UHGV virus genome: UHGV-1366603
Reading direction: 5' to 3' (one strand)
Source: a virus
Length of the DNA stretch: 64,000 nucleotides
Below the pieces are notes generated by a model that did no database searches, was not told the origin of the DNA, and was given only the letters and a program-made list of their open reading frames with translations. The position numbers were made by a program, and so were the translations under genes. This document shows positions 21,386 through 38,671 of the stretch, piece by piece (positions within the stretch are counted from its first letter, which is position 1; each line of letters begins with the position of its first letter).

Positions 21386-21387
21386 AA

Positions 21388-21786
21388 TTACCTCCCAGAA
21401 CACCCACCGGAACAAGAACCTGAACAGCCTGAAGAACAGTTCCCTGTACACGCGTTAGAACAGCTCCCCGTGCAACTTCCTGAACACCCACCGGAGCAGG
21501 TATTCGAACATCCGCTACAGCCCGCGCTACAACCTGATACGCAGTTTGCAGAACACGAGGAACCACAACCACCGGATGCGTTTCCTGTGCAGCCACCAGA
21601 ACAACTCGAACACGTCCAGCTACAACTACCTCCGCAGTCGTAGTGATTGCGGGCCTGTCCTCCGAATAAGTCTGCGTTGTTTGTCGCTTTCCCGCGAATA
21701 TAGTTTTGTACTGCACCCGTATTCTTCAATGCAGTGCTGTCAATGTTATTTAACCGCGCTTGTAGCGCAGGTAATCCAATTGCCAT
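21388..21786 (-). CDS. Cys-rich precursor-like protein B (~50-aa leader plus ~80-aa Cys/Gly/Ser core)
   Basis: RBS agaggtg. Core begins HYDCGGSCSWTCS and continues with about 20 Cys at mostly CxxxC spacing, ending GGCSGR. Confidence 0.65.
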   Translation of the reverse strand: MAIGLPALQARLNNIDSTALKNTGAVQNYIRGKATNNADLFGGQARNHYDCGGSCSWTCSSCSGGCTGNASGGCGSSCSANCVSGCSAGCSGCSNTCSGGCSGSCTGSCSNACTGNCSSGCSGSCSGGCSGR

Positions 21787-21796
21787 TTTTCACCTC

Positions 21797-22192
21797 TTAG
21801 GTTGGACCAGAACAGCCGCCAGAGCAGGCACCAGAACAACCCGTAGAACAACGGCCTGAGCAAGCACCCCCACAAGTTCCGCTACAACCTGAACACCCAC
21901 CTGAACACGTTGAGCTACATCCAGTACATTGGTTACCGCACGCAGAGGAGCAGCTGCCTACACACACAGACGTACAAGTACCCGAACAGCTCGTACAACC
22001 ATGCGTACAGCCGTTTGAGCACGTCCAGCTACAACTACCTCCGCAGTCTAACCGGTTTGGCGTCCAACCCGAAAATGTATCGGCTGCATTATGTGCTTTC
22101 GACGCAACTTGCGGATCAACACGTGGGCCAGTTGCCATTTGGTTCTCTACGTTGGTGATTCGGTCACGTACGTTTTTAACACTGATCGCCAT
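21797..22192 (-). CDS. Cys-rich precursor-like protein A
   Basis: ATG at 22190-22192 with RBS aagga (track ORF begins one codon earlier at GTG). Leader MAISVKNVRDRITNVENQ...; core NRLDCGGSCSWTCSNGC... ending SGGCSGPT. Confidence 0.65.
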   Translation of the reverse strand: MAISVKNVRDRITNVENQMATGPRVDPQVASKAHNAADTFSGWTPNRLDCGGSCSWTCSNGCTHGCTSCSGTCTSVCVGSCSSACGNQCTGCSSTCSGGCSGCSGTCGGACSGRCSTGCSGACSGGCSGPT

Positions 22193-22259
22193 CACGTATC
22201 CTTAAAATAAAAAAGAATGGAGGACTACGTCCATAAACATAGTTCCTCCTGTAATTAAA

Positions 22260-23465
22260 TTATTTTGTACCCGCTTCCGCCTGTACGTCATCACGAGACG
22301 TCAGGTTAGCGTTAACGTGTACTGGGGCCTGAACCACACCACCGTATCTCTTGTGGAGATAACCGCTGTGCGGGTTATCTGCCGCGATGTGGTTTTGTAG
22401 GTTCTGGTTCGCTTGACTGATTGCGTTCGTGTTATTGTTAACTTGCTGTTTAAGCGCATCCAGGTTCTGTTGTACCTGATCGATTTTCTGATCGGTTTCT
22501 TGACCCTGTTGCTCTAACGCGGCAACACGCTGAATAACCTGATTCAGTTTTGTGTTTAAATCGTTGATGCTCTTTTGCAGTTGTAACACTAACGAGTTCA
22601 GGTTCGCTAACGCTAATGCCATTTTCTGGTAGTTTTGAGCAACCACGTTAAGTTGGTCGTTCCACGCTTCCAGAGAGTTGACAACAGCGTCAATACGCTT
22701 ACCTAAAGCTTCGTCCGCTTTCTTCAGTGCATTGATTTCCGTAATCGTTGCGTCGATAGCAGACTGGACGTCACGGATAAGCGCACGGATTTCAGTTTCC
22801 GTTAACCCGTTAACCTGATGGATATCAAGATGGTGAACGTTACCGGTTGAGTTAATGTGTGCATTTAAAGCGTCTAAGAAGTCATTTTTCAGGCTTTCTA
22901 AAATCGCTTTAATGTTCTCTAACTGTACTGCGTCACCAGAACTAATAGCATCTTTAATACCCGCCAATACGGTAATGATATATTCAAAACCGTAGATGTC
23001 ACCCACGTCTTTATACGTCGGTGCAGACGGGAATGTATCCGGTACGTTACGCAAGTCTTTAAACGCAATCGTACGGTTATCGAGGTTTAATTCAGCAATC
23101 GCCTGTTCGATAGCCACGATGTTCGCAGACTGTGGGCCACCAACGACCTGCGCAGATACTGTAATATCTGTTGGAATCGCTGTGTTAGTGACCACCACCG
23201 CCATAACAATCTCGCGGTTTTTAGTCAGCTTTTCATAAGTCGGGTGTGCAAAAATCAACTCATAATCGGTACCACGTTCGTAGGTTGCATCCGGTCGGTT
23301 AGCAACGCGTAAACGGAACGTGTCCGCAAAGAACGGGCCGTCAGGAAAAGCAAAAGCACGGTTTACTTTACCTGTACCTAACGTAATCTGACGCTCCACA
23401 GCGTTAGACGTTAGCGAGCCCGTTAAATCTAAAGGATATTGATAAACAATGGAGGCCATGGCCAC
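22260..23465 (-). CDS. Tail fibre protein with N-terminal anchor module and long coiled-coil shaft
   Basis: N-terminal FPDGPFFADTFRLRV...GTDYELIF resembles the N-termini of the three large upstream proteins; residues ~230-360 are heptad-rich (LNTKLNQVIQRVAALEQQGQETDQKIDQVQQNLDALKQQ). Confidence 0.6.
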   Translation of the reverse strand: MAMASIVYQYPLDLTGSLTSNAVERQITLGTGKVNRAFAFPDGPFFADTFRLRVANRPDATYERGTDYELIFAHPTYEKLTKNREIVMAVVVTNTAIPTDITVSAQVVGGPQSANIVAIEQAIAELNLDNRTIAFKDLRNVPDTFPSAPTYKDVGDIYGFEYIITVLAGIKDAISSGDAVQLENIKAILESLKNDFLDALNAHINSTGNVHHLDIHQVNGLTETEIRALIRDVQSAIDATITEINALKKADEALGKRIDAVVNSLEAWNDQLNVVAQNYQKMALALANLNSLVLQLQKSINDLNTKLNQVIQRVAALEQQGQETDQKIDQVQQNLDALKQQVNNNTNAISQANQNLQNHIAADNPHSGYLHKRYGGVVQAPVHVNANLTSRDDVQAEAGTK

Positions 23466-23499
23466 TCTCCTTTATTCGAGACGTCCTTGTCCCGAGTCA

Positions 23500-26400
23500 T
23501 TAAGATGTAAACATAAGATTGAACTGGAGTTTGTCGATATCGCGAGTTTCTGCCGGATTCACGGCATCGTACGCGGTCGCTACGTAAACGGTTAGCGTGC
23601 CGTTAGCGTAAGACGATTTCACCGGTGGGTTAGTTCCGGTCTGACCATCTCGCACAATGAGTGTAGGTTCACTTGGGAGATTATCAAACTGACCCTTGAC
23701 CGCTTTATACACCAAACCAGATTGCGCAGACAGTTCACTGTCCGTAAAGACAAAGAACGGTGTGTCGATATCTGCCTGTTTAATCGTGGTACCGGTCTCG
23801 ACGTCAATCAACTGTACCGCCCCAAACTTCGTACGATAACTTTCATACTCGTTCTTCGGAATAACGAACGTGACGTGAACGCGAACCTCCTCGGCAGGTT
23901 TAAACCCAGCGTGCTCTTTTTCCAGGTACTGGTTGGCGGTTAACGTTACCGTTTGTTCAGTCATCGTACCACCGGCCTGGTTTATTGCATACCGAGCTTC
24001 AACAATACCGGTTGGTGCAGCAAGTCGCAGTTTCAAAGCACGATTCGCCGTTCCTGGATTACCTGGCACCTGAACGCGCAAACTCAATGCTAGGTAAGCA
24101 TACGTTCCGGTAGTCGGTTTCGTATACGCACCAATCCATTTCATGTTCGCAGACGCTGCCTGCGTGTTTTCAGAAGCAGTGGCTGTCGCAATGTTGGCGG
24201 CTACCGCTTTCTGCCAGAATTGGTCAGCGCAGTTCTCATACGCTACCCTGGCCACGCTCTTATAACCCGAGTAAGTTTCCTGAATTGGTAACTTAGGACG
24301 CGTCGTAATACCAGACAGTGAACCCCATTTTTGACCGTCAACATACCCTTCACCTTTCGTCGCAGACGCCGTAGGTGCTTTAACGGGTTTGTTAACCAGC
24401 GTTAATAGAGGACCGGTCTTTCTGTCAAACGCTGCTGCTACATCGTGTTGGTCGATAATTGCCGCGTGGTCTTCCAGCTCTTTCACACGACCCAAACGTT
24501 TTACTTTGTCGATACTGATATCGGTAATACGGCTGGAATCGGTGGTTACCGTCCCGACGAACAGTCTTGTTGAAGTATCAGCTAACTGCTCCAAACCGAT
24601 ACGGTATTGCGCAGTAGAACCTGACACCTCAGCGTGCACGTAGAACGTTTGGTTAGCGTGATTGGACGGGAACTCGCTGCTTAAATCCACAGACCACGTT
24701 GGAAGTGTGTAACTGCTGCTACCGAAGTCTAACTTGACTTCTTCTGTCAAATACAGAATCCAGCCTTCTGCTGTCTCCACACCGGCAATAATAACAGCCT
24801 GACCTCCGGTTGAGAACGTCGTGTCGTTAACGAACTCTGCGGCTGTATACGCGTTACCTGAACAGAAAACACGGTCAGCTTTAGAGTAAATCAACGCCAT
24901 CTTGTCCCAATTACCGGCACCCATATAGCACCCAGATTCTGGGTTATGTGCAGGGGCCATCTGTCGTAACTGTGACTTACCAGGAACGCGAGACCAACCT
25001 GAACCTGGGTCGTAGGTATACTTCGCGGCGTAACCTAGTGCATTTAAGTCCCCGATATTTCGGATAGTTAACGTATAAGGTAGCCAAATACCGAAGTTTA
25101 CACCGTCGGCAGAAGCAAAAATTGGCTGACCGACACGTCGTGTTTTATTACCCGCTTCTTCCCTCAGAGACTGATAACTTAAACCATAATCGAGGTCTAA
25201 GAACCAGTCCACCAACTTAAAGGTGGCTGAGTTGAAACGTAAGTAGCCGTTCTCTTTAGATGGACTCACCATGAAGTAATAGATGTCAAGAATTCGACGT
25301 CCGTTACTTGAGGTTTTCATGCACGAAACTTGCAACAAGTCAAATTCGCACACGGTGTTGATACCCAACATCCAAAGAGCAAACAATGCATTACCGGTTT
25401 GATGGGCAGCGCTAATACGTTCATTCGCGTAACCATTTGCTTGACCAGATGGCGCACCGTCAACGATCATCCGAATCATTTTCTGGCGATCGGCTTCTTC
25501 TAGCGTTAAGCGTTCGGAAGACAATGCGAAATTACCGTAGATGTTACGATACGGGAACGTTTCTGCTTTGGTCAAATACCAACCGTTTAACTGCCCGTGA
25601 CGCTCCTCAGGAGTCATGCACGCAGCCATACAGCTAAGCTGCTCGTAAAGCGTTGCATCGACTTCACGACGGTTGTTGTTCGGACCGTATCCGCTATAAC
25701 CCGGAACATCGTAAGGTTTGTTCGGATCAACTTCTACTTCGATGGTGTAACGGTTACGTGGGTTAGACAACCACACTTTGTTCGAACCACCAATTCCGAC
25801 AGGATGGGAAAGACCGATGGTATAAATAGAACCGCGACCTTTATCCCAGGTAAACGTTCCTTCGCCCGAGGTGTTGTTTGGGTTATCGTAACGCAGATAG
25901 TCGAAAAGCTCTTTGCCTTGTGTTCCTTTAATAGAAACGTTCGTCATCTGGTCCGCATCGTTAATCTGCCAACAGGAAAGCATCATTCCTGTACCGTTGG
26001 GTTTAGCATACGTCGCGAAACAACGGTTGTTTGCCTGGCCACCACCCCACTTACGACTGGTTTCTACAGTTGAGCCATCCGCGAACGAGAGTGTAGTAGC
26101 ATCAGCCTTGATGGGGAAGCGTTCGCGGCCTTCTAACGTAACCTTGCCCGTCAACGTATCGATTGTGAAACTTGTTGCCCATTGACGGAAATTAATCGTC
26201 GAACCGTCTGCCGCCGCAAACCACACAGTGGGCACATGGTTCACACGAATCACGCTATCGCGTACAGCACACGCGTGGTTACATTCTGGACCGTGAACAA
26301 AGTTACGTCCGATCGTCCATTTAGCACGACCCTCCGGTGTGAGATATGTAAAGAATTGACCAGTCTGCGACTCTTCGGTCTTCTGACCAATTCGTAAACA

Positions 26401-28683
26401 GAGGTTATCCCCGAATTGTCCCATCTCCCCGTTTAGGGTTACACGTTCAAATTCTAACGTAGTGTTAGTAGACAAATCGGCTTTACGTAATCGCCATGCT
26501 GCAACAGCGTAAGCAGAGTTATTTACCGTAGAGCGGAGAAGATAAACGTAGTCATCAACCAACACAACATCATCGGTTTCTGGCCACGGATTCCAGGTTT
26601 GTTCCGTAGTACCGCTGGGGTTGCCGTTACGGTACACAGGCATCGTAACGCGGCATACCACCGTGTGCTTAGTGTGGTCCATCGAGCCATTAAACAGTAC
26701 CAAATAACGGTTATTATCAGAACCCAGGCAAATAATCGCTTCCTGGCCGCCGATCAATATCGCTTTTAGGGTCACTCCAGGATATTTACTCATCCCGGCA
26801 GGGTGATATTTCACTGAGGTCTGCTGCGGATTTACAAACGCGTTTGACGTGTTAATGTCCGCGTAGCCGTAATAAATAGCTTCTGTACCCGGTACGCCAT
26901 TAGAACCGTTACGTAGCGAATAAACCTTACCCTGCTGATGCCCAACAACCCCTTTCTGGTAGGACTGGTTTTTGGTGTAGCCTGCGTAGTTACCTAACGC
27001 TGGGATAGGTAAGAAGTTCTTGTTACCGAATTTCGCACCGCCTACCGTCCACGCCGGTAAGATGGTATTCAGTTTATCAGAGACCTTCTTAATCTCTTTT
27101 GCGAACAACCACCCTTGACGTGACGTGACAGCTTTATCATTAGTGGTGTCAATCGCATCCCACAGCTGTAAGATACCGTCAACCGTTGCACTACCAATTG
27201 GGACGTTATCCAAGTCAGCAGTGGTGTGGGTGTGCGTTTTCAAACTCTTGTTTTTCAACACGTTCGTTAACGCTTTTGTCACCGGCTTAGCACTCGGTAT
27301 GGTGTTATCCATCTTATCGATACCGAAATCGGTTTTCGTTAAGGTTAACACCATCTTGTCGCCCGTCTTAACAAACCCTTTACCGTTAACGGTATAGTCA
27401 TCGTCAACGTACAAGTCCAAACGGTCTTTTAATTCTGTTACAGCTTTCTGGGAGATGGCAGTACCTAACGCCGCAGACGTAGAGATATTCGTAATCGAGA
27501 ACAGCCCGTAAACCGATTCGGACGCTGTGGGAATATTCGCGTTTAACGTGACCGGGTTAGTCTGTTTTGCGGTACCGTACGGTTTTACGGTGTCTGACGC
27601 TTTGAAATACGCGTTTGCTTCAAGCAACGTTACTGACGTCAGATACATGTTCACCATTTCCGGTGTGACCAGATACACGGAGTTATAAACTGGCGCTAAT
27701 ACATCCTGTTCTGACCCCGAGTGAACCCAAAGCGTATTCAGACCCGCACTGAATTCAACCGCTAAACCCGATTCATTGTTGTCCTGGTCTGCTTTAATCA
27801 CCAACGGTTGTGGCGAGGTAATTAACCACTTATCGCCACGAATACTGATGATGTGGCCACCTGACGTTTTAAACGTTAATTCATTACCGTTCGTGGTACC
27901 CCATCGACCGTAAACGGTGCCGAGGGCTTCACCCATTAACTGGTCAACATCAGATTGTTCGATACCCGCTGAACCCATCAGCGTGGCCAATTCGTCAATC
28001 GTTAACCCAAACGCTTTAGTAGCGTCAACCGCACGTCCTAATACGGGGAGCGCAGCAACGTCGTCAGTGGTATAGTGATGCGCGTTAGGGTTACGGTGAT
28101 GCTGGTATAATTCTTCGTCGAAAACCTTTTTCCCGTTCTCGTAAATCAGGTTAGTGACTTCACTGAACGCAGCATCTAATTCCGTAGAACGTTTGATGAT
28201 TTTCTTACGAATGTCTTCTAACGCCTTAACGACCTCATCCATCAGAATCGCTTCTTCTAAGTTAGCAGGCGGGTCGATAGGCTGGATAACCGGCGCATAC
28301 GCCATTAGTTCAGACCAGTCCACGTTACGTGGGTCTTTCAGGTCAGTGCGAACTAAGAACTTCCCGATTTCAGATTGCGGTACACGGTATTGACGTGCTA
28401 CCCCTAAAATCTCATATTCGATTTCTGTTGCGGTAAGCAACATAAACCCGCCGTAAATCTGATCTTGCTCAGCTTCTGCGAGTTCTTTAAAGTAATAGCC
28501 TAAATAGTAGTCCAACCCCTCAATCAGAGTACGACGTCCGTTAGGCGCGGTATCGTCGGCTACTGTGAGTTTTAATCCGATACGATAAAAAGGTCCTTCA
28601 GGCGGAATGACCACGTTAAATCGGTTAGGGTACGTTGCTGTGCTTAGCGTACCGTTAAACTGCGCCGCGTCTTCTCTCGGCAT
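23500..28683 (-). CDS. Large tail fibre / tailspike-like structural protein (1727 aa)
   Basis: Single uninterrupted ORF; N-terminal PPEGPFYRIGLKL...GLDYYLGYYF anchor-like module; RBS aggag upstream. Confidence 0.6.
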   Translation of the reverse strand: MPREDAAQFNGTLSTATYPNRFNVVIPPEGPFYRIGLKLTVADDTAPNGRRTLIEGLDYYLGYYFKELAEAEQDQIYGGFMLLTATEIEYEILGVARQYRVPQSEIGKFLVRTDLKDPRNVDWSELMAYAPVIQPIDPPANLEEAILMDEVVKALEDIRKKIIKRSTELDAAFSEVTNLIYENGKKVFDEELYQHHRNPNAHHYTTDDVAALPVLGRAVDATKAFGLTIDELATLMGSAGIEQSDVDQLMGEALGTVYGRWGTTNGNELTFKTSGGHIISIRGDKWLITSPQPLVIKADQDNNESGLAVEFSAGLNTLWVHSGSEQDVLAPVYNSVYLVTPEMVNMYLTSVTLLEANAYFKASDTVKPYGTAKQTNPVTLNANIPTASESVYGLFSITNISTSAALGTAISQKAVTELKDRLDLYVDDDYTVNGKGFVKTGDKMVLTLTKTDFGIDKMDNTIPSAKPVTKALTNVLKNKSLKTHTHTTADLDNVPIGSATVDGILQLWDAIDTTNDKAVTSRQGWLFAKEIKKVSDKLNTILPAWTVGGAKFGNKNFLPIPALGNYAGYTKNQSYQKGVVGHQQGKVYSLRNGSNGVPGTEAIYYGYADINTSNAFVNPQQTSVKYHPAGMSKYPGVTLKAILIGGQEAIICLGSDNNRYLVLFNGSMDHTKHTVVCRVTMPVYRNGNPSGTTEQTWNPWPETDDVVLVDDYVYLLRSTVNNSAYAVAAWRLRKADLSTNTTLEFERVTLNGEMGQFGDNLCLRIGQKTEESQTGQFFTYLTPEGRAKWTIGRNFVHGPECNHACAVRDSVIRVNHVPTVWFAAADGSTINFRQWATSFTIDTLTGKVTLEGRERFPIKADATTLSFADGSTVETSRKWGGGQANNRCFATYAKPNGTGMMLSCWQINDADQMTNVSIKGTQGKELFDYLRYDNPNNTSGEGTFTWDKGRGSIYTIGLSHPVGIGGSNKVWLSNPRNRYTIEVEVDPNKPYDVPGYSGYGPNNNRREVDATLYEQLSCMAACMTPEERHGQLNGWYLTKAETFPYRNIYGNFALSSERLTLEEADRQKMIRMIVDGAPSGQANGYANERISAAHQTGNALFALWMLGINTVCEFDLLQVSCMKTSSNGRRILDIYYFMVSPSKENGYLRFNSATFKLVDWFLDLDYGLSYQSLREEAGNKTRRVGQPIFASADGVNFGIWLPYTLTIRNIGDLNALGYAAKYTYDPGSGWSRVPGKSQLRQMAPAHNPESGCYMGAGNWDKMALIYSKADRVFCSGNAYTAAEFVNDTTFSTGGQAVIIAGVETAEGWILYLTEEVKLDFGSSSYTLPTWSVDLSSEFPSNHANQTFYVHAEVSGSTAQYRIGLEQLADTSTRLFVGTVTTDSSRITDISIDKVKRLGRVKELEDHAAIIDQHDVAAAFDRKTGPLLTLVNKPVKAPTASATKGEGYVDGQKWGSLSGITTRPKLPIQETYSGYKSVARVAYENCADQFWQKAVAANIATATASENTQAASANMKWIGAYTKPTTGTYAYLALSLRVQVPGNPGTANRALKLRLAAPTGIVEARYAINQAGGTMTEQTVTLTANQYLEKEHAGFKPAEEVRVHVTFVIPKNEYESYRTKFGAVQLIDVETGTTIKQADIDTPFFVFTDSELSAQSGLVYKAVKGQFDNLPSEPTLIVRDGQTGTNPPVKSSYANGTLTVYVATAYDAVNPAETRDIDKLQFNLMFTS

Positions 28684-28715
28684 CGTAAAGACTCCTACTT
28701 TTAAATAAAATGGAT

Positions 28716-28740
28716 ACCCCTCCCCATTACAGGGAGGGGT
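28716..28740 (-). terminator. Intra-operon hairpin with U-rich tail (possible partial terminator or attenuator)
   Basis: On the minus strand, acccctccc-tgtaatg-gggaggggt is followed by atccattttatttaaaag, just before the RBS of the 1727-aa gene. Confidence 0.45.
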
Positions 28741-28777
28741 TACCTACGGACACACAACTGCCCGCAGGCAGCCTGTC

Positions 28778-31700
28778 CTAAGTACGATCCCCTAACTGCT
28801 TCCCGTTAAGTTCTCGTTTCAGTACAGAAAGTATCCATTTCCACGCTTTACTCGTGATATGGTACGGATTGCGTTTCTCCATTAAGAACTGCTTTTCACC
28901 GCTACGCAGTTCGAAGCTCTGCGCATTAAGCTGATCCTGACGAGTGCTTTGCTCATCAGTCACTTCTAACGAACAGGTAAAGTTAAGCTCGTAACCTTCA
29001 GGATTATTACCCGGCGGGTCTAAGACAATATAGATGTCCTGACCTACACGTAAATCCGTTGGAGTGATGGTAATCGCTTTACCCACATCGGCGTTAGTCG
29101 ACAGAGCAAACTCTGCACTATCGGTAGACGCTAAGAATGGGTCTTTCCCTGCGTCACCGATAATCACCTTACCCGGCCAGTTACTTTTTATCGTTCCTGA
29201 CACTCTTGCAATTCGGTACTGTTGTTTATCAACACCTTGTGCAAAACGGAGAATGAGTTTGTGACGATAACGACTTGCAGCAGCCTTAGTCGTACTCCAC
29301 TCGTTGTTCCAGGAAGTATGCAGTTCGTTTTTCTTCGCCATCAGCGCACCGCGAGACAGCTTACGGTCAAAGAACTGCGCAGGTAACTGCCCATCGTGAG
29401 AAACCGCAACGCTTCCCTGACCAGTTGGTAAAGCAATGCTTTCCGTAACGCGGTATTTTTGACTAATCTCATAAGTCGCAGGGTCAATCACAGACTGACT
29501 ATAATCAGCGTCTTTGTTATCAGCCAAATACCCAACGGATGAATCCAGATACGACTCAAACAGCGAACGTAAGTAATGATACTTATCAATGTTGATGTTG
29601 TTCGTAACCGGATCAATCAGCGCATGGCTAATCGTTACTCGGCATTTCGCACTCAGTTCTTTAAACGACAACCCTATTCCGTCACCGGTAAAATAATCCA
29701 CTAAGTCGAACGGGAATTGAATTTCCAACTGACGTTGTTTAACTGTCGTCGTCCCAAACTGCGAGAACGACAACGCTAAACGTAACACACGCGTACTCAC
29801 GTTATAGCGATAACGAATCATGCCACGAGGCGCATGGTTTGCAGAGATTTTATCTCGGGCGGCACCCCAACCAATCAAATCGAGAATCGCGGGGTTGGTT
29901 TCTTCACCGTTGAACAACACGTCCTTAAACGTTGCGTCAATCGCTGTTTCCCCAGACTCTTCCATTACCAACGGAATGTCAGTAACGTCTGAAACCGAAC
30001 GGGAACCAATCCCCAACTTACACTCTTTGGCCGTCAGGTCAATACGTACGTAACGACGCTTAACACTCGCACCTTGCGTTGACGTACACAGCACCAAATC
30101 CGGTGCAGCAGTAAGCGCTTGCGCCCCACCGACGTCGTCAACATCGAATGCAAACGAGCCTTCGAAGGTCGGTGCGTTGTTTTCTTTCGGGTTAAACGGT
30201 GTAAACCAACAATACGGCGTAGCACCTTCAGGTATCACAACGTATTGAAGACTGGATTTCACGTTTTGGTTGTGTGCGTAAGTATAAAGACCGCGACTGA
30301 CAAGATGGAAAACATCACCTGTACCGGCTGTTAACGCTTTCCTAAAGATACACGCTCTTGGTTCGGCAACAGCACGGTTTAATAACGGCAACCGTGGGTT
30401 ATCCGTTAACGCCCAGTCCACAGAACTGAGTCCGTGTGCTTTACGCGTGGCGATGTGTCCACTAACCTCGGCACTTTTCCCGAAATCAAACGTGGTTTCG
30501 AACCCAACTGTTTTATTCGCGTAATTCTCACCAGCAACAATATCAACGTAACCGATATAGCCACGTTCAGGATCAACTGCGATGCTCTGAATCGGTTCAG
30601 CACGCGAATATAGAGAGCCTGTGAGCATGTTAACGTACAGATAGTGACGAATCCCTACGTGCGTGGTAACAAACTCCTGGAGAAGCTCTACGCGCGTTTC
30701 AGGGCCACTGAAGTAAACAGGGTAATTCCCATCGTAAACTTCAAACTGTACCGCTGCGGACTTAGCCGTATCGCTACACTCAGCTTTAACCGCTACTGTG
30801 TAGTTTTCAACGTCCGATGACGTTTCGTACACTGCAACGAGCGGAGACTCGCCTGACGCTGCCAGGACACCGTTAATGTAAACCGTAACCGGACCGCCGC
30901 CCGCAGCATAAACCCAGAGCTTCGGTTGGTACGCCCTTACACGCGTTTTTGCCAATACCGTAACCACTGACTGGTCACCCATCTGCGTGGCAGTTTTACC
31001 CACCGGGACAGACTGGAACCCCATCAACGGCGGTTCTTCAATACCTGTCCAGTTGATTCCCGTACCGTTACTCACCTTACCCGTAGGCCAGGTCAGTTCA
31101 AGCTGGTTGTTCGGTGAGAACCAGTTAAACATCGGGGTGGTTTGCAGGTCAATCGCACCAGTAACGGTGCTGTCGCCTTTCGTCCCGTCCAGCAAATAGA
31201 AATATTTCAAATCCTGAACGGAGATTGACGTACCCTGGCTATTAAAACGCCAGTCCGCACCTTTCACAGCAGCGAAGTCAGTTACCGTGCCTTCTTTCGC
31301 GTTTGCAATTGCCGCAGCGACCACATCTAAACGTGCTGAAAGCTCTTTTAGGATGTTCGGTACCACTGCACGGTTTTCAACTAAGCCGTTCTGGTTAGTT
31401 GCGTAACGACCAATACCGTAAATCGTCTGCGAGGCTTTATAAATGCCTAACTCTGACCAGTCGTGATGGTGCCCGACGTCTGCTAAACCACTAACCGAAG
31501 CATTCAGTGCGGTCGACAACGGTTTGTCGAGGTCTGCGGTGTTATCCGCTTGCCCTAATCCCAGGTCAGCTTTCGTGATTGTCCTGGAACCGTCGTTCAT
31601 CGGCTTACCGTTAATCATGGTCGTTTTAGTCACGTACCCTGATAAGTCGGTTGAATACGGCGTTAATGATGCAGGCGTTGCAGCAACCCCAACCGTTTCT

Positions 31701-32962
31701 GTGCCTTTACCGGTTTTAAGCTTAACAACACCTTTTTCAGCGGTGGACGCTTTCGTTGGGTCGATAGTCCCCACGATAGGATCGGCACGAGAGCCTTTAC
31801 CGGTAAAACTAATCCCGTTACGGCCTTCGATATACACTTTGGAGTCATCAGGATCGCTACCGCCACTCCCGCCAGCATCAGGGTCTTGCTGATACTCCAT
31901 CAGCGCTGTGGTGGTCAACAACGGGTTACCGTTCAGGGTGAGTTTGTTCATCCCTAAAGCGTCGCCGGTTGACTCGATACGTAAGGTGTTTTTACCCGCA
32001 CGCCAGTTAATGTAACGTCCCGCACCTGTGCCTTCCAGATGCCCTACCGCTAATACCACAGAACCGTTGGATTTTAACGTAAAGCCATCATTCGCAAAAA
32101 TGATTTCTGACTCGCCGTTTTTCGAACGGAACTGTGCGCGGTTTCCTGACACCGTACAGTTAAACACACCCCGTACTTCCGAAGAAATCCAGTGAGAGAT
32201 ATACGTGTCGATAACCGACTGCGGTAAACGAAACGCTTTGAGTTCTTCCGTTAACGCTTTCAACTTTAACCCATACGCCATAAAGGTGTCGGGTGTTTTC
32301 AGGTTAACGGGATGGGCATTAATTTGTGCGCTCGTGGTTTCGTGCGGGTTCGTCGCGGCGATATGTGCTGGGTAGTTGAACGCTTCAATTTCTTTACCCA
32401 GCGCAGTCACTAACGCTTTAACTTCGGCTAATTTATCTTTAATTAGCTGGTTAGCATCATCGGTTTTCAGCTCAATATCGTGAATCGCTGACGCTAAATA
32501 TTTTTTGTTCAGCAAATCCGCCCAAGACGTTGCCGCAGGCGTAGCTGGATATAACGACGGCCTTCCGTCTAACAACAGCCAGTCTGCACTGACCGGGTTA
32601 TTCAAATATTTCACCAGCTCGTCGAGCATGTCAACGAACGGGTCGTAGAACGTACCGCCGAGCATTTGTCCTTCAAAGGTTACGATGCCTTTGATGGATG
32701 GGTTGATAAGGTGTACCCCACAATACACGTTGGCTGCTACCGAGTCATCCAGTTCCGTCAGCTGATATTGCAGTTCGTAGTCCACCCCACGGCTCAGTGG
32801 GGTGGTTGAACCTGGTTGTCTGACGACTAAATCTTCAAAGAACGGGCGATGGTCTAAAATCACCACCCGATCGTTGTTGTTTTCTGACCCGATGATACGC
32901 TCCTCTAAGAAGTGATTCTCGGTTTTCGTCCCCCGAGGATCGTAAGGATACGCTTTCATCAA
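28778..32962 (-). CDS. Large tail fibre / tailspike-like structural protein (1394 aa)
   Basis: N-terminal HRPFFEDLVVRQ...GVDYELQY anchor-like module; Gly/Thr/Ser/Asn-rich beta-type composition. Confidence 0.6.
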   Translation of the reverse strand: MMKAYPYDPRGTKTENHFLEERIIGSENNNDRVVILDHRPFFEDLVVRQPGSTTPLSRGVDYELQYQLTELDDSVAANVYCGVHLINPSIKGIVTFEGQMLGGTFYDPFVDMLDELVKYLNNPVSADWLLLDGRPSLYPATPAATSWADLLNKKYLASAIHDIELKTDDANQLIKDKLAEVKALVTALGKEIEAFNYPAHIAATNPHETTSAQINAHPVNLKTPDTFMAYGLKLKALTEELKAFRLPQSVIDTYISHWISSEVRGVFNCTVSGNRAQFRSKNGESEIIFANDGFTLKSNGSVVLAVGHLEGTGAGRYINWRAGKNTLRIESTGDALGMNKLTLNGNPLLTTTALMEYQQDPDAGGSGGSDPDDSKVYIEGRNGISFTGKGSRADPIVGTIDPTKASTAEKGVVKLKTGKGTETVGVAATPASLTPYSTDLSGYVTKTTMINGKPMNDGSRTITKADLGLGQADNTADLDKPLSTALNASVSGLADVGHHHDWSELGIYKASQTIYGIGRYATNQNGLVENRAVVPNILKELSARLDVVAAAIANAKEGTVTDFAAVKGADWRFNSQGTSISVQDLKYFYLLDGTKGDSTVTGAIDLQTTPMFNWFSPNNQLELTWPTGKVSNGTGINWTGIEEPPLMGFQSVPVGKTATQMGDQSVVTVLAKTRVRAYQPKLWVYAAGGGPVTVYINGVLAASGESPLVAVYETSSDVENYTVAVKAECSDTAKSAAVQFEVYDGNYPVYFSGPETRVELLQEFVTTHVGIRHYLYVNMLTGSLYSRAEPIQSIAVDPERGYIGYVDIVAGENYANKTVGFETTFDFGKSAEVSGHIATRKAHGLSSVDWALTDNPRLPLLNRAVAEPRACIFRKALTAGTGDVFHLVSRGLYTYAHNQNVKSSLQYVVIPEGATPYCWFTPFNPKENNAPTFEGSFAFDVDDVGGAQALTAAPDLVLCTSTQGASVKRRYVRIDLTAKECKLGIGSRSVSDVTDIPLVMEESGETAIDATFKDVLFNGEETNPAILDLIGWGAARDKISANHAPRGMIRYRYNVSTRVLRLALSFSQFGTTTVKQRQLEIQFPFDLVDYFTGDGIGLSFKELSAKCRVTISHALIDPVTNNINIDKYHYLRSLFESYLDSSVGYLADNKDADYSQSVIDPATYEISQKYRVTESIALPTGQGSVAVSHDGQLPAQFFDRKLSRGALMAKKNELHTSWNNEWSTTKAAASRYRHKLILRFAQGVDKQQYRIARVSGTIKSNWPGKVIIGDAGKDPFLASTDSAEFALSTNADVGKAITITPTDLRVGQDIYIVLDPPGNNPEGYELNFTCSLEVTDEQSTRQDQLNAQSFELRSGEKQFLMEKRNPYHITSKAWKWILSVLKRELNGKQLGDRT

Positions 32963-32972
32963 AAAATTCTCC

Positions 32973-35900
32973 TTAATCGCGAATGATTACCGCCTGCACT
33001 TTATTGTTGGTGTCGATAAACGACATTACGCGCTCCTTGTTAAGATAAGGAGGTATCGGTAACGCAGCGTAATCCGCCAGGTTGTTATTAAACTCGGTTG
33101 CCACTAGCGCATTAAGCGTTTCGGGGTCTGAGCTTGTCCCGGCCAATTCCATGACACGTACACGATTTAACGAGGAGTAGTTGCTAATATAATCCAGCAG
33201 CGTACCGTAGAGTTTGTTCCCGGTTATGCTGTCTGCCGTAGAACGGATATTAGCACGCACTTCGTCCTCATAAAGTCCCCCTAAACCGTAGTAAATAGGG
33301 GTGTACGGATCGTTAACGATAGGTGCAATATTGAACCCGGTTAAACGGTCGCTTAGTGGGATTTTCTGCGTAGTGCCGCCTGCTGCTGTACAGCTTACGT
33401 ATTTATCTACCGCAGACAAGTACACCACGATAGTGTAAACGGTACCTGCTAAGGTCAGCGATGCGTTAAACGTTAAGTCGTTATTCGCACCACGCGTGTG
33501 TGTAAAAGTCACATCGGGTTGTAACGTACTCCACGGTGCAGGTGTAACACGTTTGGTGGGCGTGAAGCCTAACACCACAGATTTCCCGTTACCGAAGTTT
33601 AAACCAAACCCGGCGTAACAATACTCGCCGTTGCTATCAGTTAACCGATAACCACGGGTGACAAGTAACGACAACCGCATAAACTCGCCATCGGTGTTTT
33701 TCCAGCAACCCAGGACGGTTTCTAGCACCGTTCCGGTTTTTGCGTTGCTTTCGGTTTCCCAACTGACTCGCATCCCCGCATTGTTAAATACTGGGAACAA
33801 GTTGTGGATAAACCCGTGAACGTTATCACTTACCCCTTTCGCATCAAACACCCACTTCGACGCAAGCTGGTCGTATTTCACACCATCGAGTGCTTTATAT
33901 CCACCGCCAACCACATAACGCCAATCTGCCTCGCCACGCACAACCGCTTGAAGTCCAGAAGCCCAGCAGGGCGCACCTACTGTTAAATTGCTTAACCCCA
34001 GCACTGCACGCGGAGCAGAACGCTGAATATGTGCGTTGTCATTAGCGACGTGGTCTTTCAATTCACGGAAATCGCCTAACCGTGTCACGTTACGTAGTTC
34101 AGTAACGAACACTTCAGAAAGGTCGTTAATACCGATCAGCCCCACGCGCGTCATGGTATCCGTTTCAGCCTGACTGTAGCTGTCGTGAATAATATACTTC
34201 GCTTTGTTATCGACAATGTCAACAAAAATCCCTGCGTAAATTTCCTTATTCAGATTCGGGAAACGTTCAGTGACGTTAACCGACATCAACGGCACGTCGT
34301 ACGTTTCGCCGCCAATGAAATACGTGGAAGCAGGAAGTGTCACCAGGATTTTGTCTTTAACCGTAACGTCAATTAGGTCGTTACCGGACTTACCAAAGCG
34401 AATAATGTCAACGCGAGCACCCGAGTCAACCCCACCGACGGTATTCTCCAAATCTTCAATCTGGGAAGTCTGCGCCATCACCACACTACCATCGAGTGCT
34501 AAGGTGACATCATCCACATCCAGACCGAACTTAATCAGACCCCGTTTCGTGGTGTCTGCGTTTTCAACACCGAACACAGAAGACGGGTGTTGGTGAACCT
34601 TCGGTGAGTATTTGTCTAACTCAGTCTGTTGTGCAACAGAAATCGGTAAGTCAACGTCCGGGGTATTCGCAACGTTACCTAAACCAAAGGTAATTTTGTC
34701 GATAGTAACCGAACTGGTAAGCTGCATGTCGTTGATGTACGACTTGGCAGCAACCAACTTACCAGTAAACTCTGCGTCCAGTTTTTCAATTAGCGCAGGA
34801 GTCGCCGCGAGGTTTTCAGCCGTACCAAACTCGTCAGTCAACTGCCAACACGCTAACGTAGTAACGTCTTCGGCAACCGGAAGGATAAACGTTGCGACAA
34901 ACGGCGATGCTTTAATCCCGCTACCGGTAAGTTCCACCGTAGACGTCGACGCACCGTAGAACAGACCTGTACCGCCTGCGGTATTACCCGGCAAATACGG
35001 ACCGACCGTAGTGGGGTCTAAGAGCTTCTTACCACGCCACAACAATCCACGGTCATCGGGGTATAGCACAAGCTGGTTACCGCCTGCTTGTAACGTAACA
35101 GGGTTATTACCCACGTTAACATCGGTAGAACCTTGACCGATGAACTTAATGGATTTCGGATCAACGACGAACTGGGCACCTAAACGTTTTTCGTCAACTA
35201 CACCAGGTGCTTTCTTAATGGTAACCGTGTTACCTTTGTTTTGCGAACTAATAGAGACGCCGTCAGCAACATTATTGATCAGCGATTTAAAGTGATGCTG
35301 ATTCTCTAATGCTTCTAACGCAGCGTCCATGTTATCGAAGTTAATCCGGGAGCTATACGTTTTACCGTTTAAGCTAATAACGGCGTCAAACACGTTCCCT
35401 GTACGCTTCAGTTGAAAACGCAGCGTAAAATCCCCATCCGGTATTGCTGGATCAGGAGCTTGAGAAATGTACCGAACTGACGGTACCGGATTCCCGTAAC
35501 CGTGCAACGACAGTTCGATAGTAAGAGTACCACTCCGGACTTCACCGAAAATCTCTACGTACTTACCGGAGTTACTACCGGGATTTTCGTAGAAACGTAA
35601 ACCGGCCCTACCGACTGCCTCATTACCAGACGCTGTTTTACGTCCAGTAACAATAAAGTCAATATCTTGCAGGCTGGCGGGTACCGCGTTAAAAGAAGCA
35701 CTAAATCCATTCTTCGTTCCTGTGTAACGAAGTGCGCCGTGATACGTGCGACCTTGACTAACATAGCTTTCGCTAAAATAAGGATTCACGTATTTAGACA
35801 TCGAAACCGGATCAACTTCTGTCGTGAACGAAGTAAAACCGGATAGCGTTCCAATGGTTCCGTCGGCCGTTTTCGTAGTTGACGTGCGCAGTAGTTTCTT

Positions 35901-37295
35901 TTGCGCAGTCAATGTTGCTTGCGTTGGATACTTAGCATTAACATAATCTGTTAACTGCGGCTTCGTTTTTCCGTAAGCTAACGCTGCATCCGTCGCAATA
36001 CCATTCAACTCTAACGCACGAATCGGGCCCCAAGTGTCAGCGTGTGGGTTATCCTTACGAGTGACGTGTTCGTGTGCAGGGGCGTTGCGATAGAGTTGTT
36101 CTACTAACTGATGGTACTTAACGATTAGCTGATAAACGTCATTACTTACGTCGGCTTCTGGCGCACCAGGTAACGCAAGGAATTGAGCGTAATCGTTTTC
36201 AGCCGCCCACCAGTTTAAGTTAACGTTGGTTTTGTATTTCAGCCACTTCGCAACGTCGGTTTTGCTGTAACCTGCTGAGAATTCGTCTGGCGGTGTGTCA
36301 ACGTTAAACGTATAGTCCATGGACTGTTTGTTAGTCGTTACCTCGATAACGTATACACCATTACCCGGCTGACGAACGACACTAAACGTTAACTCGCCTT
36401 TTAATTCATCGTCGGTCAAACCGTTGATTAACGTATAATCGTAATCGGTCGAACCACTGCCTAACGCAACCGTTAGACGTAGGCCGATTTTACGTTGTTT
36501 TAATTGGAGACGAAGGATACTTGCGCCACCGTTCGCGTAACACAACATCCAATCGATTTGTTCGTTCGGATTAATACTCCCCATATTCGGAAAAATAGCC
36601 GGAATGCGGTATTTCATCGACAGGGAATATTCATTTAACGTGGTGGTTTTGTACGTAACAGAGAAACGACGTTTAGCGGTATTGTAAGTATACCCACCTT
36701 TGTTGTCGTACGTTGCGTACTGTTCAGACGTGATAACCGTGCCATTAGCGCGATGCTCGATATCTAACGTGTTACGTGCAATCGGGTCTACCCGATTCAC
36801 CACGTTACCTAACGAATCACCTAAGCCTGCAATGGCCTGCATTAATTCCAGTTCACCTTTCCAGTTTTCCCAGTCAAACTGAATATCAACCGGTGGAAAG
36901 TAAACGTCTCCGATAACGGTATCCCATTGACACGCAGACGGGTATTTATCTTTATTGAGTTCGCGTTCTGCGGTAATCTGTTCTTGGGTCGCTTCACCAC
37001 AACCTACGGCGTGGTAATCTACCGTGAAATTCGATTTGTATTTGTCGTTAACAATCCAAATCATCCCGTGCACGAGATAGGCTGTGCGCAACATACCGGT
37101 CTCGTACGGGTGTGTAATAACGTAATCGTCGCCTAAGGTCAGTATTTTGCCGCCGCTCTTGACCACCAGGGATGTGGTGAAAAAAGGGGCGTGGGCAGGT
37201 ACCAACATTCGGTACTTCGTACCAATGACGGCGACCGCTTCACCGGTTATTTTATTCCCCGGTTCTTTGAAGTGTGGGTCTAGGACGACAGCCAT
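32973..37295 (-). CDS. Large tail fibre / tailspike-like structural protein (1440 aa); first gene of the operon in this window
   Basis: N-terminal AHAPFFTTSLVVK...GDDYVITHPY module; RBS aggag upstream; divergent from the + gene at 37363. Confidence 0.6.
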   Translation of the reverse strand: MAVVLDPHFKEPGNKITGEAVAVIGTKYRMLVPAHAPFFTTSLVVKSGGKILTLGDDYVITHPYETGMLRTAYLVHGMIWIVNDKYKSNFTVDYHAVGCGEATQEQITAERELNKDKYPSACQWDTVIGDVYFPPVDIQFDWENWKGELELMQAIAGLGDSLGNVVNRVDPIARNTLDIEHRANGTVITSEQYATYDNKGGYTYNTAKRRFSVTYKTTTLNEYSLSMKYRIPAIFPNMGSINPNEQIDWMLCYANGGASILRLQLKQRKIGLRLTVALGSGSTDYDYTLINGLTDDELKGELTFSVVRQPGNGVYVIEVTTNKQSMDYTFNVDTPPDEFSAGYSKTDVAKWLKYKTNVNLNWWAAENDYAQFLALPGAPEADVSNDVYQLIVKYHQLVEQLYRNAPAHEHVTRKDNPHADTWGPIRALELNGIATDAALAYGKTKPQLTDYVNAKYPTQATLTAQKKLLRTSTTKTADGTIGTLSGFTSFTTEVDPVSMSKYVNPYFSESYVSQGRTYHGALRYTGTKNGFSASFNAVPASLQDIDFIVTGRKTASGNEAVGRAGLRFYENPGSNSGKYVEIFGEVRSGTLTIELSLHGYGNPVPSVRYISQAPDPAIPDGDFTLRFQLKRTGNVFDAVISLNGKTYSSRINFDNMDAALEALENQHHFKSLINNVADGVSISSQNKGNTVTIKKAPGVVDEKRLGAQFVVDPKSIKFIGQGSTDVNVGNNPVTLQAGGNQLVLYPDDRGLLWRGKKLLDPTTVGPYLPGNTAGGTGLFYGASTSTVELTGSGIKASPFVATFILPVAEDVTTLACWQLTDEFGTAENLAATPALIEKLDAEFTGKLVAAKSYINDMQLTSSVTIDKITFGLGNVANTPDVDLPISVAQQTELDKYSPKVHQHPSSVFGVENADTTKRGLIKFGLDVDDVTLALDGSVVMAQTSQIEDLENTVGGVDSGARVDIIRFGKSGNDLIDVTVKDKILVTLPASTYFIGGETYDVPLMSVNVTERFPNLNKEIYAGIFVDIVDNKAKYIIHDSYSQAETDTMTRVGLIGINDLSEVFVTELRNVTRLGDFRELKDHVANDNAHIQRSAPRAVLGLSNLTVGAPCWASGLQAVVRGEADWRYVVGGGYKALDGVKYDQLASKWVFDAKGVSDNVHGFIHNLFPVFNNAGMRVSWETESNAKTGTVLETVLGCWKNTDGEFMRLSLLVTRGYRLTDSNGEYCYAGFGLNFGNGKSVVLGFTPTKRVTPAPWSTLQPDVTFTHTRGANNDLTFNASLTLAGTVYTIVVYLSAVDKYVSCTAAGGTTQKIPLSDRLTGFNIAPIVNDPYTPIYYGLGGLYEDEVRANIRSTADSITGNKLYGTLLDYISNYSSLNRVRVMELAGTSSDPETLNALVATEFNNNLADYAALPIPPYLNKERVMSFIDTNNKVQAVIIRD

Positions 37296-37362
37296 TATCT
37301 ACTCCTATAGTCCGTGGGCGTCGAGTTCATACTATGACTTGAATCTATTGAGGAAAAGAGCT

Positions 37363-38629: not shown

Positions 38630-38671
38630 CCTCCTACCCTCTTAGAGGGTAGGAGTAGCACGTTTTTTTTT
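38630..38671. terminator. Bidirectional intrinsic terminator
   Basis: Hairpin ctcctaccctc-ttag-agggtaggag followed by a 10-T run. Confidence 0.7.

What the first reader, a model, noticed from the sequence alone, without database searches (positions are those of the whole stretch)
22260..37295. Four fibre-like proteins sharing an N-terminal module, co-transcribed with the Cys-rich/radical SAM genes
The 1440-, 1394-, 1727- and 401-aa proteins all begin with a related ~100-aa segment (hydrophobic-x-P-x-G-P-F-F/Y ... G-x-D-Y-x-L). That is consistent with a common attachment domain docking different distal, receptor-binding or enzymatic domains onto one baseplate site, as in multi-fibre phages. 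The 401-aa member carries a ~130-residue coiled coil. Gaps between the genes are only 10 to 100 nt, and there is no strong terminator until 16541.
Basis: partly seen in the sequence, partly recalled or inferred. Interest (0 to 1): 0.55.

Follow-up and report, generated by a model that had tools for sequence, protein, structure and literature searches.

The report
Jumbo-phage baseplate fibre paralog set
These four genes are the baseplate-fibre gene set of a giant phage related to Salmonella phage SPN3US: each protein starts with the same anchor domain already described for phiKZ gp131-135, so this is a new example of a known arrangement.

Summary
All four minus-strand ORFs (399/401, 1727, 1393/1394 and 1440 aa) begin with one homologous domain of about 140 aa. 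A profile built only from other phage genera picks out exactly these four among 366 ORFs (E 9e-14 to 3e-29).

The window is an undescribed relative of SPN3US, Asesino and phiEaH2. The genes are orthologues of SPN3US gp167-170. Three of those are the published "paralog family C": virion proteins, absent from tailless mutants and similar to phiKZ gp131.

The shared module is the gp131-like N-terminal domain. In the 2026 phiKZ cryo-EM atlas, six such domains plus a six-helix bundle form each of 12 fibre-attachment sites beneath gp130. The gp130 homologue is the divergent neighbour here (37363-38625).

The distal parts differ. The short protein has a helix of about 150 residues. The 1727-aa protein models as beta-propeller plus beta-sandwich domains.

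The transcription claim fails. Conserved hairpin-plus-T-tract elements lie at 28716-28740 and 22219-22249, the second separating the fibre genes from the Cys-rich/radical SAM genes.

Verdict: a new member of a known kind, of low to moderate interest. The adjacent CXXX-repeat/radical SAM cassette is the more unusual feature.

The parts
32973..37295 (-). Fibre paralog 1 (1440 aa), the orthologue of SPN3US gp170 and Asesino gp190. Layout: N-anchor domain, lineage-variable insert, shared stem module, distal domain.
   Evidence: ORF. PHROG 7557 match E=0; PHROG 2163 matches aa 4-100, E 9.7e-16. Orthologue alignments.
36876..37295 (-). gp131-like N-terminal anchor domain of the 1440-aa protein (aa 1-140).
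   Evidence: HMM from other genera: E 3.3e-22, aa 5-137. Alignment A2.
28778..32962 (-). Fibre paralog 2 (1394 aa, or 1393 aa from ATG 32959), the orthologue of SPN3US gp169 and Asesino gp189.
   Evidence: The RBS overlaps the stop codon of the upstream gene.
32540..32962 (-). gp131-like N-terminal anchor domain of the 1394-aa protein (aa 1-141).
   Evidence: External HMM E 3.5e-25, aa 2-141. tblastn of aa 1-227 finds 184 phage records, including phiKZ-like 'tail protein' genes.
28716..28740 (-). Conserved GC-rich hairpin (11 bp) followed by a T-rich run, in the 94-nt gap between paralogs 2 and 3. Terminator- or attenuator-like.
   Evidence: compensatory changes in Asesino and SPN3US; the gap folds at -45.3 kcal/mol, z = -5.7.
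23500..28683 (-). Fibre paralog 3 (1727 aa), the orthologue of SPN3US gp168 (tail protein, 'expected essential') and Asesino gp188.
   Evidence: PMC5105663.
28276..28683 (-). gp131-like N-terminal anchor domain of the 1727-aa protein (aa 1-136).
   Evidence: External HMM E 9.3e-14, aa 17-136.
23503..27096 (-). Distal region of the 1727-aa protein (aa 530-1727). It is almost all beta and is modelled as beta-propeller plus beta-sandwich domains.
22260..23465 (-). Fibre paralog 4 (401 aa as listed; probably 399 aa from ATG 23459). It is the orthologue of SPN3US gp167 and Asesino gp187. Among the paralogs of each other phage it best matches the last gene of the array (phiKZ-like gp135, 201phi2-1 gp220).
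   Evidence: BLASTP E 4e-13 to 2e-51 over about 210-350 aa against the last array gene of six other phages.
23019..23465 (-). gp131-like N-terminal anchor domain of the short paralog (aa 1-149).
   Evidence: External HMM E 3.2e-29. AF2 gives a beta-rich domain at aa about 7-115 with pLDDT mostly 84-90 (two 10-residue blocks at 70 and 76), followed by helix 116-125.
22353..22799 (-). Long single helix or coiled coil of the short paralog (aa 223-371).
   Evidence: AF2 helix 223-371, pLDDT >90 over about aa 250-350. Coiled-coil Pfam hits.
22219..22249 (-). Conserved hairpin followed by a U-run (22204-22218), immediately after the short paralog. Looks like an intrinsic terminator and separates the fibre genes from the Cys-rich/rSAM genes.
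   Evidence: -19.4 kcal/mol, z = -4.4; conserved in Asesino, SPN3US and L009.
37363..38625 (+). Homologue of phiKZ gp130 and SPN3US gp171, the baseplate outer-periphery protein under which the fibres dock. It is divergently transcribed, with a 67-nt gap. The listed 492-aa ORF starting at 37147 is an over-extension.
   Evidence: BLASTP to the gp130 of a phiKZ-like phage, E 4e-13. 81% identity to Asesino gp191 from aa 73 onward. gp130 is solved in PDB 9xqd. Synteny holds in 9 of 9 loci.
31403..32083 (-). Shared 'stem' module in the 1394-aa protein (aa 294-520). It carries fibre motifs (GLG..N..D.DKP...H.H) and is homologous to aa 313-512 of the 1727-aa protein and aa 709-928 of the 1440-aa protein.
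   Evidence: BLASTP 2e-10 and 6e-18. hhalign probabilities 96.5% and 98.9%. PHROG cross-hits.

Best explanation
The four genes encode the baseplate-peripheral fibre set of an SPN3US/Asesino-like nucleus-forming jumbo phage. This is the gp131 paralog family, called 'paralog family C' in SPN3US.

Each protein starts with the gp131-like N-terminal domain: about 140 aa, beta-rich, then a helix and a P-x-x-F-P-P/H-x-H type fibre motif. That domain is the anchor. By homology with phiKZ, six such domains plus a six-helix bundle pack together at each fibre-attachment site beneath the gp130 homologue, which is encoded divergently next door. The paralogs therefore probably co-assemble, either as a hetero-hexamer or as paired trimers, rather than acting as freely interchangeable fibres.

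Beyond the anchor the proteins diverge:
- The 1394- and 1727-aa proteins share a stem of about 500 aa.
- The 1440-aa protein has the stem module displaced by an insert.
- The short protein continues as a helix of about 150 residues and is the counterpart of phiKZ gp135.
- The distal part of the 1727-aa protein is beta-propeller plus beta-sandwich, the sort of module that binds or cleaves surface carbohydrates. It is the likeliest receptor-binding end.

Shown here: homology, domain positions, synteny and fold class.
Taken from the literature on orthologues: virion and tail location, and docking under gp130.
Inferred: stoichiometry, co-assembly and receptor binding in this particular phage.
For: - Orthology and synteny with Asesino gp187-190 and SPN3US gp167-170.
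- The N-domain is recognised by an HMM that contains no SPN3US-like sequence, by PHROG 2163 and by shuffle statistics.
- The same domain starts phiKZ-like gp131/133/134/135, 201phi2-1 gp216/218/219/220 and fibre-like proteins of Goslar, RP12, Moabite and pVa-21.
- It is always at the extreme N-terminus in 3211 cluster representatives whose lengths, among the best 150 listed, run from 159 to 3740 aa.
- A gp130 homologue is the divergent neighbour in 9 of 9 loci.
- PMC13250141: 12 fibre sites beneath gp130, each with six gp131-like N-domains and a six-helix bundle.
- PMC5694885: SPN3US gp167-170 are detected in virions at similar abundance (spectral count/mass 1.0-1.9; portal 0.93). gp168-170 are absent from a tailless mutant.
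- PMC5105663: gp171 is an essential tail-associated gene and gp168 is a tail protein.
- PMC12676376: phiKZ gp131-135 all lack transposon insertions, as expected for non-redundant co-assembling parts.
- Fibre motifs match a solved 'tail collar fibre' (9d93, E 1.8e-8).
- The Goslar homologue carries a Peptidase_S74 fibre-chaperone domain according to its annotation.
- The short paralog matches the last array gene of six other phages.
Against: - No experimental data exist for this phage.
- The phiKZ fibre base was built by docking AF3 models into a 4.5 A map. It is not an atomic structure, and the gp131 N-domain is not in the PDB.
- The stoichiometry 3+1+1+1 was proposed for phiKZ, where three paralogs are about 460 aa. 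Here three paralogs are 1400-1700 aa and look like full fibres, so the arrangement may differ.
- The AF2 N-domain model has no significant structural neighbour (best Foldseek E 0.09).
- None of the window proteins has detectable similarity to the gp131 C-terminal propeller.
Confidence: 0.78

Rival explanations
1. Classical multi-fibre model. Each paralog forms its own homotrimeric fibre, and the common N-domain lets the different fibres plug independently into equivalent baseplate sockets. This broadens host range, with no hetero-oligomer.
For: - Three of the four proteins are fibre-sized, with typical trimeric-fibre motifs.
- The Goslar homologue has a Peptidase_S74 domain typical of homotrimeric fibres.
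- Six N-domains per site could equally be two homotrimers (PMC13250141).
- Roughly equal abundance of gp167-170 in SPN3US virions fits 12 sites shared out among four trimers.
Against: - The phiKZ atlas fits N-domains of four different paralogs into each site.
- All phiKZ paralogs appear essential, and SPN3US gp168 is 'expected essential'. Redundant alternative fibres should not be.
- The set of one short plus several long paralogs, with the short one always last, is conserved across genera. That suggests fixed roles rather than interchangeable modules.
Confidence: 0.17
2. Not fibres as such. The large proteins are baseplate-periphery struts or virion-borne enzymes such as depolymerases, and the N-domain is merely a generic oligomerisation or assembly tag.
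For: - The published annotation is only 'baseplate/tail fiber candidate'.
- gp131 was located at the baseplate periphery and only 'possibly' with fibres.
- The propeller fold resembles glycosidases and sialidases, including a phage endosialidase.
Against: - Fibre sequence motifs are present (GLGN..N..D.DKP, H-x-H, P..FPP..H.H), and there is a match to a solved collar fibre.
- phiKZ density continues from the N-domain hexamer into extended fibres.
- No glycosidase family is detected by Pfam or NCBIfam.
Confidence: 0.04
3. The N-terminal resemblance is a chance or compositional similarity among unrelated large ORFs.
For: Several pairwise BLASTP E-values for the N-termini are above 1.
Against: The profile and shuffle statistics, conservation across eight genera and the constant N-terminal position rule this out.
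Confidence: 0.01

Closest known systems
SPN3US gp167-gp170 (paralog family C = gp168-170) and Erwinia phage Asesino gp187-190
   Same: Same four genes in the same order and orientation, with the same divergent gp171/gp191 neighbour and the same downstream Cys-rich, radical SAM and DUF4376 genes. Amino-acid identity is 76% for the short protein and about 44-67% for the long ones.
   Different: - This phage matches no record of the phage collection over more than 7% of the region at nucleotide level.
- Its 1440-aa protein carries about 200 extra residues (aa about 495-690) compared with the 1237-1242-aa orthologues.
- The 2017 paper did not place the short protein gp167 in the family. Here it clearly belongs.
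phiKZ gp131-gp135 fibre complex beneath gp130 (Sycheva 2012, PDB 4GBF; structural atlas PMC13250141, PDB 9xqd for gp130)
   Same: The same N-terminal domain at the start of every paralog, a tandem array divergent from the gp130 gene, and four full paralogs. The short protein here matches the gp135 homologue of the phiKZ-like phage PA02 directly, E 4e-13.
   Different: - phiKZ has one 771-aa and three ~460-aa proteins. Here there are three proteins of 1400-1700 aa and one of 400 aa.
- The gp131 C-terminal seven-bladed propeller has no detectable counterpart by sequence.
- The ~500-aa shared stem and the long coiled coil were found here only in the window phage and its closer relatives, not in the phiKZ-like proteins.
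201phi2-1 gp216-gp220, annotated as virion paralogs by mass spectrometry
   Same: The record itself annotates the proteins as paralogs of one another and as virion proteins. They carry the same N-domain and follow the gp215 (gp130-like) gene.
   Different: The proteins are shorter (435-738 aa), and there is an extra ~107-aa truncated paralog, gp217.
Branched multi-tailspike systems with shared N-terminal adaptor domains, such as CBA120 TSP1-4, G7C gp63.1/gp66 and phiKp24 (recalled from my own knowledge; only phiKp24 is mentioned in a paper read here)
   Same: The concept is the same: several receptor-binding proteins with different distal domains are held on one baseplate through conserved N-terminal modules.
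   Different: No sequence or fold relationship was found. Those systems branch from one another, whereas the gp131-type domains pack six to a socket under gp130.

Membership tests
gp131-like baseplate fibre paralog family of phiKZ-related (chimalliviral) jumbo phages | gp131-like domain of about 140 aa at the extreme N-terminus | tested here: met
   An HMM from other genera hits all four at aa about 2-149, E 9e-14 to 3e-29. Supported by alignment A2 and PHROG 2163.
gp131-like baseplate fibre paralog family of phiKZ-related (chimalliviral) jumbo phages | Tandem array of paralogs immediately next to, and divergent from, the gp130 homologue | tested here: met
   The gp130 homologue lies at 37363-38625(+), 67 nt from the first paralog. 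The same layout is found in 9 of 9 loci.
gp131-like baseplate fibre paralog family of phiKZ-related (chimalliviral) jumbo phages | Proteins are tail/baseplate components of the virion | not testable with these tools
   Known only for orthologues. SPN3US gp167-170 are found in virions by mass spectrometry, and gp168-170 are absent from a tailless mutant (PMC5694885). The 201phi2-1 paralogs are annotated as mass-spectrometry-verified.
gp131-like baseplate fibre paralog family of phiKZ-related (chimalliviral) jumbo phages | Six N-domains plus a six-helix bundle form each fibre-attachment site beneath gp130 | not testable with these tools
   Reported for phiKZ from docked AF3 models at about 4.5 A (PMC13250141). 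A helix follows the N-domain in the AF2 model here, but no multimer prediction was available.
Strict orthologue of phiKZ gp131 | C-terminal seven-bladed beta-propeller (PDB 4GBF) | tested here: not met
T4-type tail fibres (gp12, gp34-37) and curated Pfam tail-fibre families | Match to a curated tail-fibre family above its threshold | tested here: not met
   In Pfam, only a sub-threshold Phage tail repeat (PTR) hit, E 0.13, for the 1727-aa protein. NCBIfam gives nothing. Only weak N-terminal PHROG hits to 'tail protein/tail fiber' families, E 1e-6 to 6e-3.
Single operon with the Cys-rich/radical SAM genes | No terminator between the fibre genes and the downstream genes | tested here: not met
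   Conserved hairpin-plus-U-run at 22219-22249 and hairpin at 28716-28740. Whether they actually terminate transcription by the phage RNA polymerases was not testable.

The most novel reading that the evidence does not exclude
The fibre module may extend beyond the four paralogs. The three CXXX-repeat Cys-rich proteins (21179-22195) begin with a fibre-like 'NADxFxG' motif. They are followed by two radical SAM (SPASM/ranthipeptide-type) maturases and a DUF4376 protein. They could be fibre-associated proteins that are thioether-cross-linked by phage enzymes, which would make this a virion or adsorption apparatus containing RiPP-like post-translationally cross-linked components. Separately, the SPN3US-type set could assemble as paired trimers of full-length fibres, giving a socket architecture different from the 3+1+1+1 arrangement in phiKZ.
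Probability: 0.15. Interest if true: 0.65.

Novelty: new member of a known kind. Interest (0 to 1): 0.25.

Why it matters
This adds little conceptually. It places an undescribed SPN3US-like phage in a well-documented scheme and extends SPN3US 'paralog family C' to include the short gp167-type protein, which turns out to be the counterpart of phiKZ gp135.

It is useful in practice. It names the probable host-range determinants of this phage. It defines the anchor-domain boundary (about aa 1-140) at which distal domains could be swapped. It also marks the SPN3US amber-mutant system as a place to test whether gp131-type fibres are obligate hetero-assemblies.

Tried and rejected
- A word-indexed homologue search with the four-sequence profile gave only 12 hits, mostly fragments or scrambled sequences.
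- phmmer of all four proteins against the PDB found nothing relevant. The profile of 30 N-termini matched only the helix/FPP-HxH motif of 9d93, not the globular domain.
- Pfam has no family for the N-domain.
- Foldseek of the short-protein model against the PDB gave no significant neighbour, best E 0.09.
- A test for an internal duplication to explain the extra ~200 aa of the 1440-aa protein found none.
- A test for similarity to the gp131 C-terminal propeller found none.
- The sigma-70 promoter scan gave counts no higher than shuffles, as expected for a phage that uses its own RNA polymerases, so it is uninformative.
- An exact-sequence contig look-up of the 401-aa translation found nothing, probably because the real product starts two residues later.
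- A literature search for phage radical SAM plus Cys-rich proteins found nothing relevant.
- Considered and rejected: chance similarity, and a single uninterrupted operon running to 16541.
Full report
**What is there**

Region 22260-37295 holds four consecutive minus-strand ORFs of 1440, 1394, 1727 and 401 aa. The gaps between them are 10, 94 and 34 nt.

Two starts probably need small corrections. The short gene has a good RBS (AAGGAGA) in front of ATG 23459, which gives 399 aa, the length of a 98%-identical relative. The 1394-aa gene probably starts at ATG 32959, with an RBS that overlaps the stop codon of the upstream gene.

At nucleotide level the region matches the phage collection only in patches: 72-77% identity over at most 7% of the query, to Erwinia phages Asesino, phiEaH2 and Stratton and to Salmonella SPN3US-like phages. 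The gene order is nevertheless identical to Asesino gp187-190 and SPN3US gp167-170. Protein identity is 76% for the short protein and 44-67% for the long ones. The window therefore comes from an undescribed relative of the Seoulvirus/Erskinevirus jumbo phages. Proteins 88-98% identical occur in assemblies of public sequencing runs.

**Is the N-terminal similarity real?**

Yes.

Its F, D and Y are nearly invariant across 30 homologues.
- Local alignment scores of the first 150 residues exceed 1000 shuffles for all six pairs (z = 3.0-12.3).
- All four match the N-terminal part of PHROG 2163, with E from 1.6e-102 to 9.7e-16.
- The cleanest test used an HMM built only from 18 N-termini of phiKZ-like, 201phi2-1, Goslar, RP12, Moabite and pVa-21 proteins, with no SPN3US-like sequence. 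It finds exactly these four among 366 ORFs, always at residues about 2-149, with E from 9e-14 to 3e-29.
- Simple pairwise BLASTP would have missed the 1440-aa protein, where E is about 1.6.

- The 401- and 1394-aa proteins align over about 215 aa.
- The 1394- and 1727-aa proteins align over about 490 aa.
- The 1440-aa protein carries the same 'stem' module at aa 709-928, after an insert.
- A further module is shared between the 1727-aa protein (aa 1290-1413) and the 1440-aa protein (aa 967-1089).

**What the module is**

The domain is the N-terminal domain of phiKZ gp131 and its paralogs. In a phiKZ-like genome it starts the 771-aa gp131 homologue and the three ~460-aa genes that follow it. 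In 201phi2-1 it starts gp216, 218, 219 and 220, which that record already annotates as virion paralogs.

A profile search of 1.84 billion cluster representatives finds 3211 proteins with the domain (2102 at E<=1e-10). Among the best 150 it is always at the very N-terminus, on proteins of 159 to 3740 aa. It has no Pfam family and no solved structure.

The AF2 model of the short protein gives a beta-rich domain at aa 7-115 (pLDDT mostly 84-90), followed by helices. It has no significant structural neighbour in the PDB. The helix and the 'W..i..kP..FPP..H.H' segment that follow the domain match a repeated motif of a solved tail collar fibre (9d93, E 1.8e-8).

**What the literature already says**

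- SPN3US gp168, gp169 and gp170 were named 'paralog family C'. They are baseplate/tail-fibre candidates, detected in virions, absent from a tailless mutant and similar to phiKZ gp131 (PMC5694885).
- gp168 is a tail protein and 'expected essential'. gp171, the divergent neighbour, is an essential tail-associated gene (PMC5105663).
- gp167, the orthologue of the short protein here, is in the virion at comparable abundance but was not assigned to the family.
- The 2026 structural atlas of phiKZ found 12 fibre-attachment sites beneath gp130. [quoted passage not shown] AF3 models were docked at about 4.5 A (PMC13250141).
- gp130 itself is in the PDB as 9xqd.
- A phiKZ transposon screen found no insertions in gp131-135 (PMC12676376).

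**The neighbourhood fits**

The ORF listed as 37147-38625(+) really starts at GTG 37363. It is 420 aa and 81% identical to Asesino gp191. It is a homologue of phiKZ gp130 (E 4e-13). A gp130 homologue is the divergent neighbour of the first paralog in all nine loci examined.

Among the paralogs of each other phage, the short protein best matches the last gene of the array. Examples are the phiKZ-like gp135 homologue (E 4e-13), 201phi2-1 gp220 (9e-23), Goslar gp25 (2e-26) and pVa-21 gp121 (2e-51). It is therefore a conserved, fixed member of the set, not an accessory.

**Distal parts**

The short protein continues as a single helix at aa 223-371 with pLDDT >90. This confirms the coiled coil.

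The distal 1198 residues of the 1727-aa protein model well (mean pLDDT 78, pTM 0.63) and are nearly all beta.

- Foldseek agrees weakly.

This is fold-level evidence for a carbohydrate-recognising distal module. It does not show enzymatic activity. None of the window proteins resembles the gp131 C-terminal propeller by sequence.

**Transcription**

The claim of one uninterrupted transcription unit reaching 16541 does not hold up.

- The 94-nt gap between the 1394- and 1727-aa genes contains two hairpins. One is an 11-bp, 7-GC stem followed by ATCCATTTTATTT. It is of the same class as the hairpins at 16548-16574 and 38631-38655 that close other gene blocks. The gap folds at -45.3 kcal/mol (z = -5.7), and the stem is kept by compensatory changes in Asesino and SPN3US.
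- Immediately after the short gene there is a hairpin followed by UUCUUUUUUAUUUU (-19.4 kcal/mol, z = -4.4), conserved in Asesino, SPN3US and a close relative.

Whether the phage RNA polymerases stop there is not known, so read-through cannot be excluded. The sequence gives no support for obligatory co-transcription with the Cys-rich/radical SAM genes.

**Most likely mechanism**

*Shown:* four paralogous proteins share a gp131-type N-terminal domain and sit next to the gp130 homologue.

*From orthologues:* they are tail/baseplate virion proteins, and the domain docks beneath gp130, six copies per site.

*Inferred:* in this phage the four proteins co-assemble at the fibre sockets through their N-domains and the helices that follow. 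The three long proteins present different distal binding modules, and the short coiled-coil protein acts as the gp135-like partner.

The stoichiometry is open, either 3+1+1+1 as proposed for phiKZ or paired trimers. In SPN3US the spectral-count-per-mass values (1.0-1.9, against 0.93 for the 12-copy portal) are compatible with roughly 12-24 copies of each protein, but this is a rough guide only.

The apparent essentiality of all phiKZ paralogs and the fixed composition of the set across genera argue against simple interchangeability.

**Verdict**

The finding is a new member of a known kind.

The adjacent cassette of CXXX-repeat Cys-rich proteins with SPASM-type radical SAM maturases is the more unusual feature and deserves its own assessment.

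Noticed in passing
window 21179-22195 (-), 17772-20001 (-): Three small ORFs (132, 132 and 90 aa; PHROG 6085) have a conserved leader of about 45 aa ending in 'NADxFxG...DCGGSCSWTCS', then a long (C-x-x-x)n Cys/Gly/Ser repeat. Two radical SAM genes lie about 1.2 kb downstream, after two ORFs of unknown function. The 440-aa enzyme best matches TIGR04115 (CXXX-repeat-target peptide maturase, E 1.4e-33, below its cutoff) and PapB-type ranthipeptide maturases. One Cys-rich ORF reaches the TIGR04114 cutoff. tblastn finds the leader only in 60 SPN3US/Erskinevirus-like phage records, often unannotated. SPN3US virion mass spectrometry lists no gp165/166. This is a phage-borne RiPP-like cassette next to the fibre genes.
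   Followed up: partly
window 28716-28740 and 22204-22249 (-): Conserved terminator-like hairpins lie inside and at the end of the fibre gene array, with compensatory substitutions in related phages. The same hairpin class closes other blocks at 16548-16574 and 38631-38655.
   Followed up: yes
window 16590-17261 (-): The last gene of the minus-strand block carries DUF4376 (PF14301, E 2.5e-11) and gives weak PHROG hits to tail and tail-fibre proteins. This suggests that the block downstream of the fibres is still tail-related.
   Followed up: no
window 35226-35813 (-), aa ~495-690 of the 1440-aa protein: About 200 extra residues compared with the 1237-1242-aa orthologues of SPN3US and Asesino. 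The insert is also present in a 90.6%-identical, 1440-aa relative. No internal duplication or other similarity was detected.
   Followed up: partly
window 37147-37362 (+); 23460-23465; 32960-32962: ORF-start artefacts. The 492-aa ORF overlapping the start of the 1440-aa gene is an over-extension of a 420-aa gene that starts at GTG 37363. The '401' and '1394' ORFs probably start 2 and 1 codons later, at ATG.
   Followed up: yes
L009-L011 (Logan assemblies of SRR16327195, SRR16327228, SRR16327204): Contigs up to 91.6 kb encode a 98%-identical 1727-aa protein in the same gene order. The 90%-identity cluster has 803 member sequences, so close relatives of this phage are common in some public sequencing runs. 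Gene calls in their Cys-rich region differ from the window (92 and 222 aa).
   Followed up: no
L003 (Vibrio phage pVa-21) 23631-25906: In pVa-21 the four N-domain paralogs are interleaved with genes annotated as tail fibre assembly proteins, instead of being followed by Cys-rich/radical SAM genes. The accessory genes of the fibre module therefore differ between lineages.
   Followed up: no
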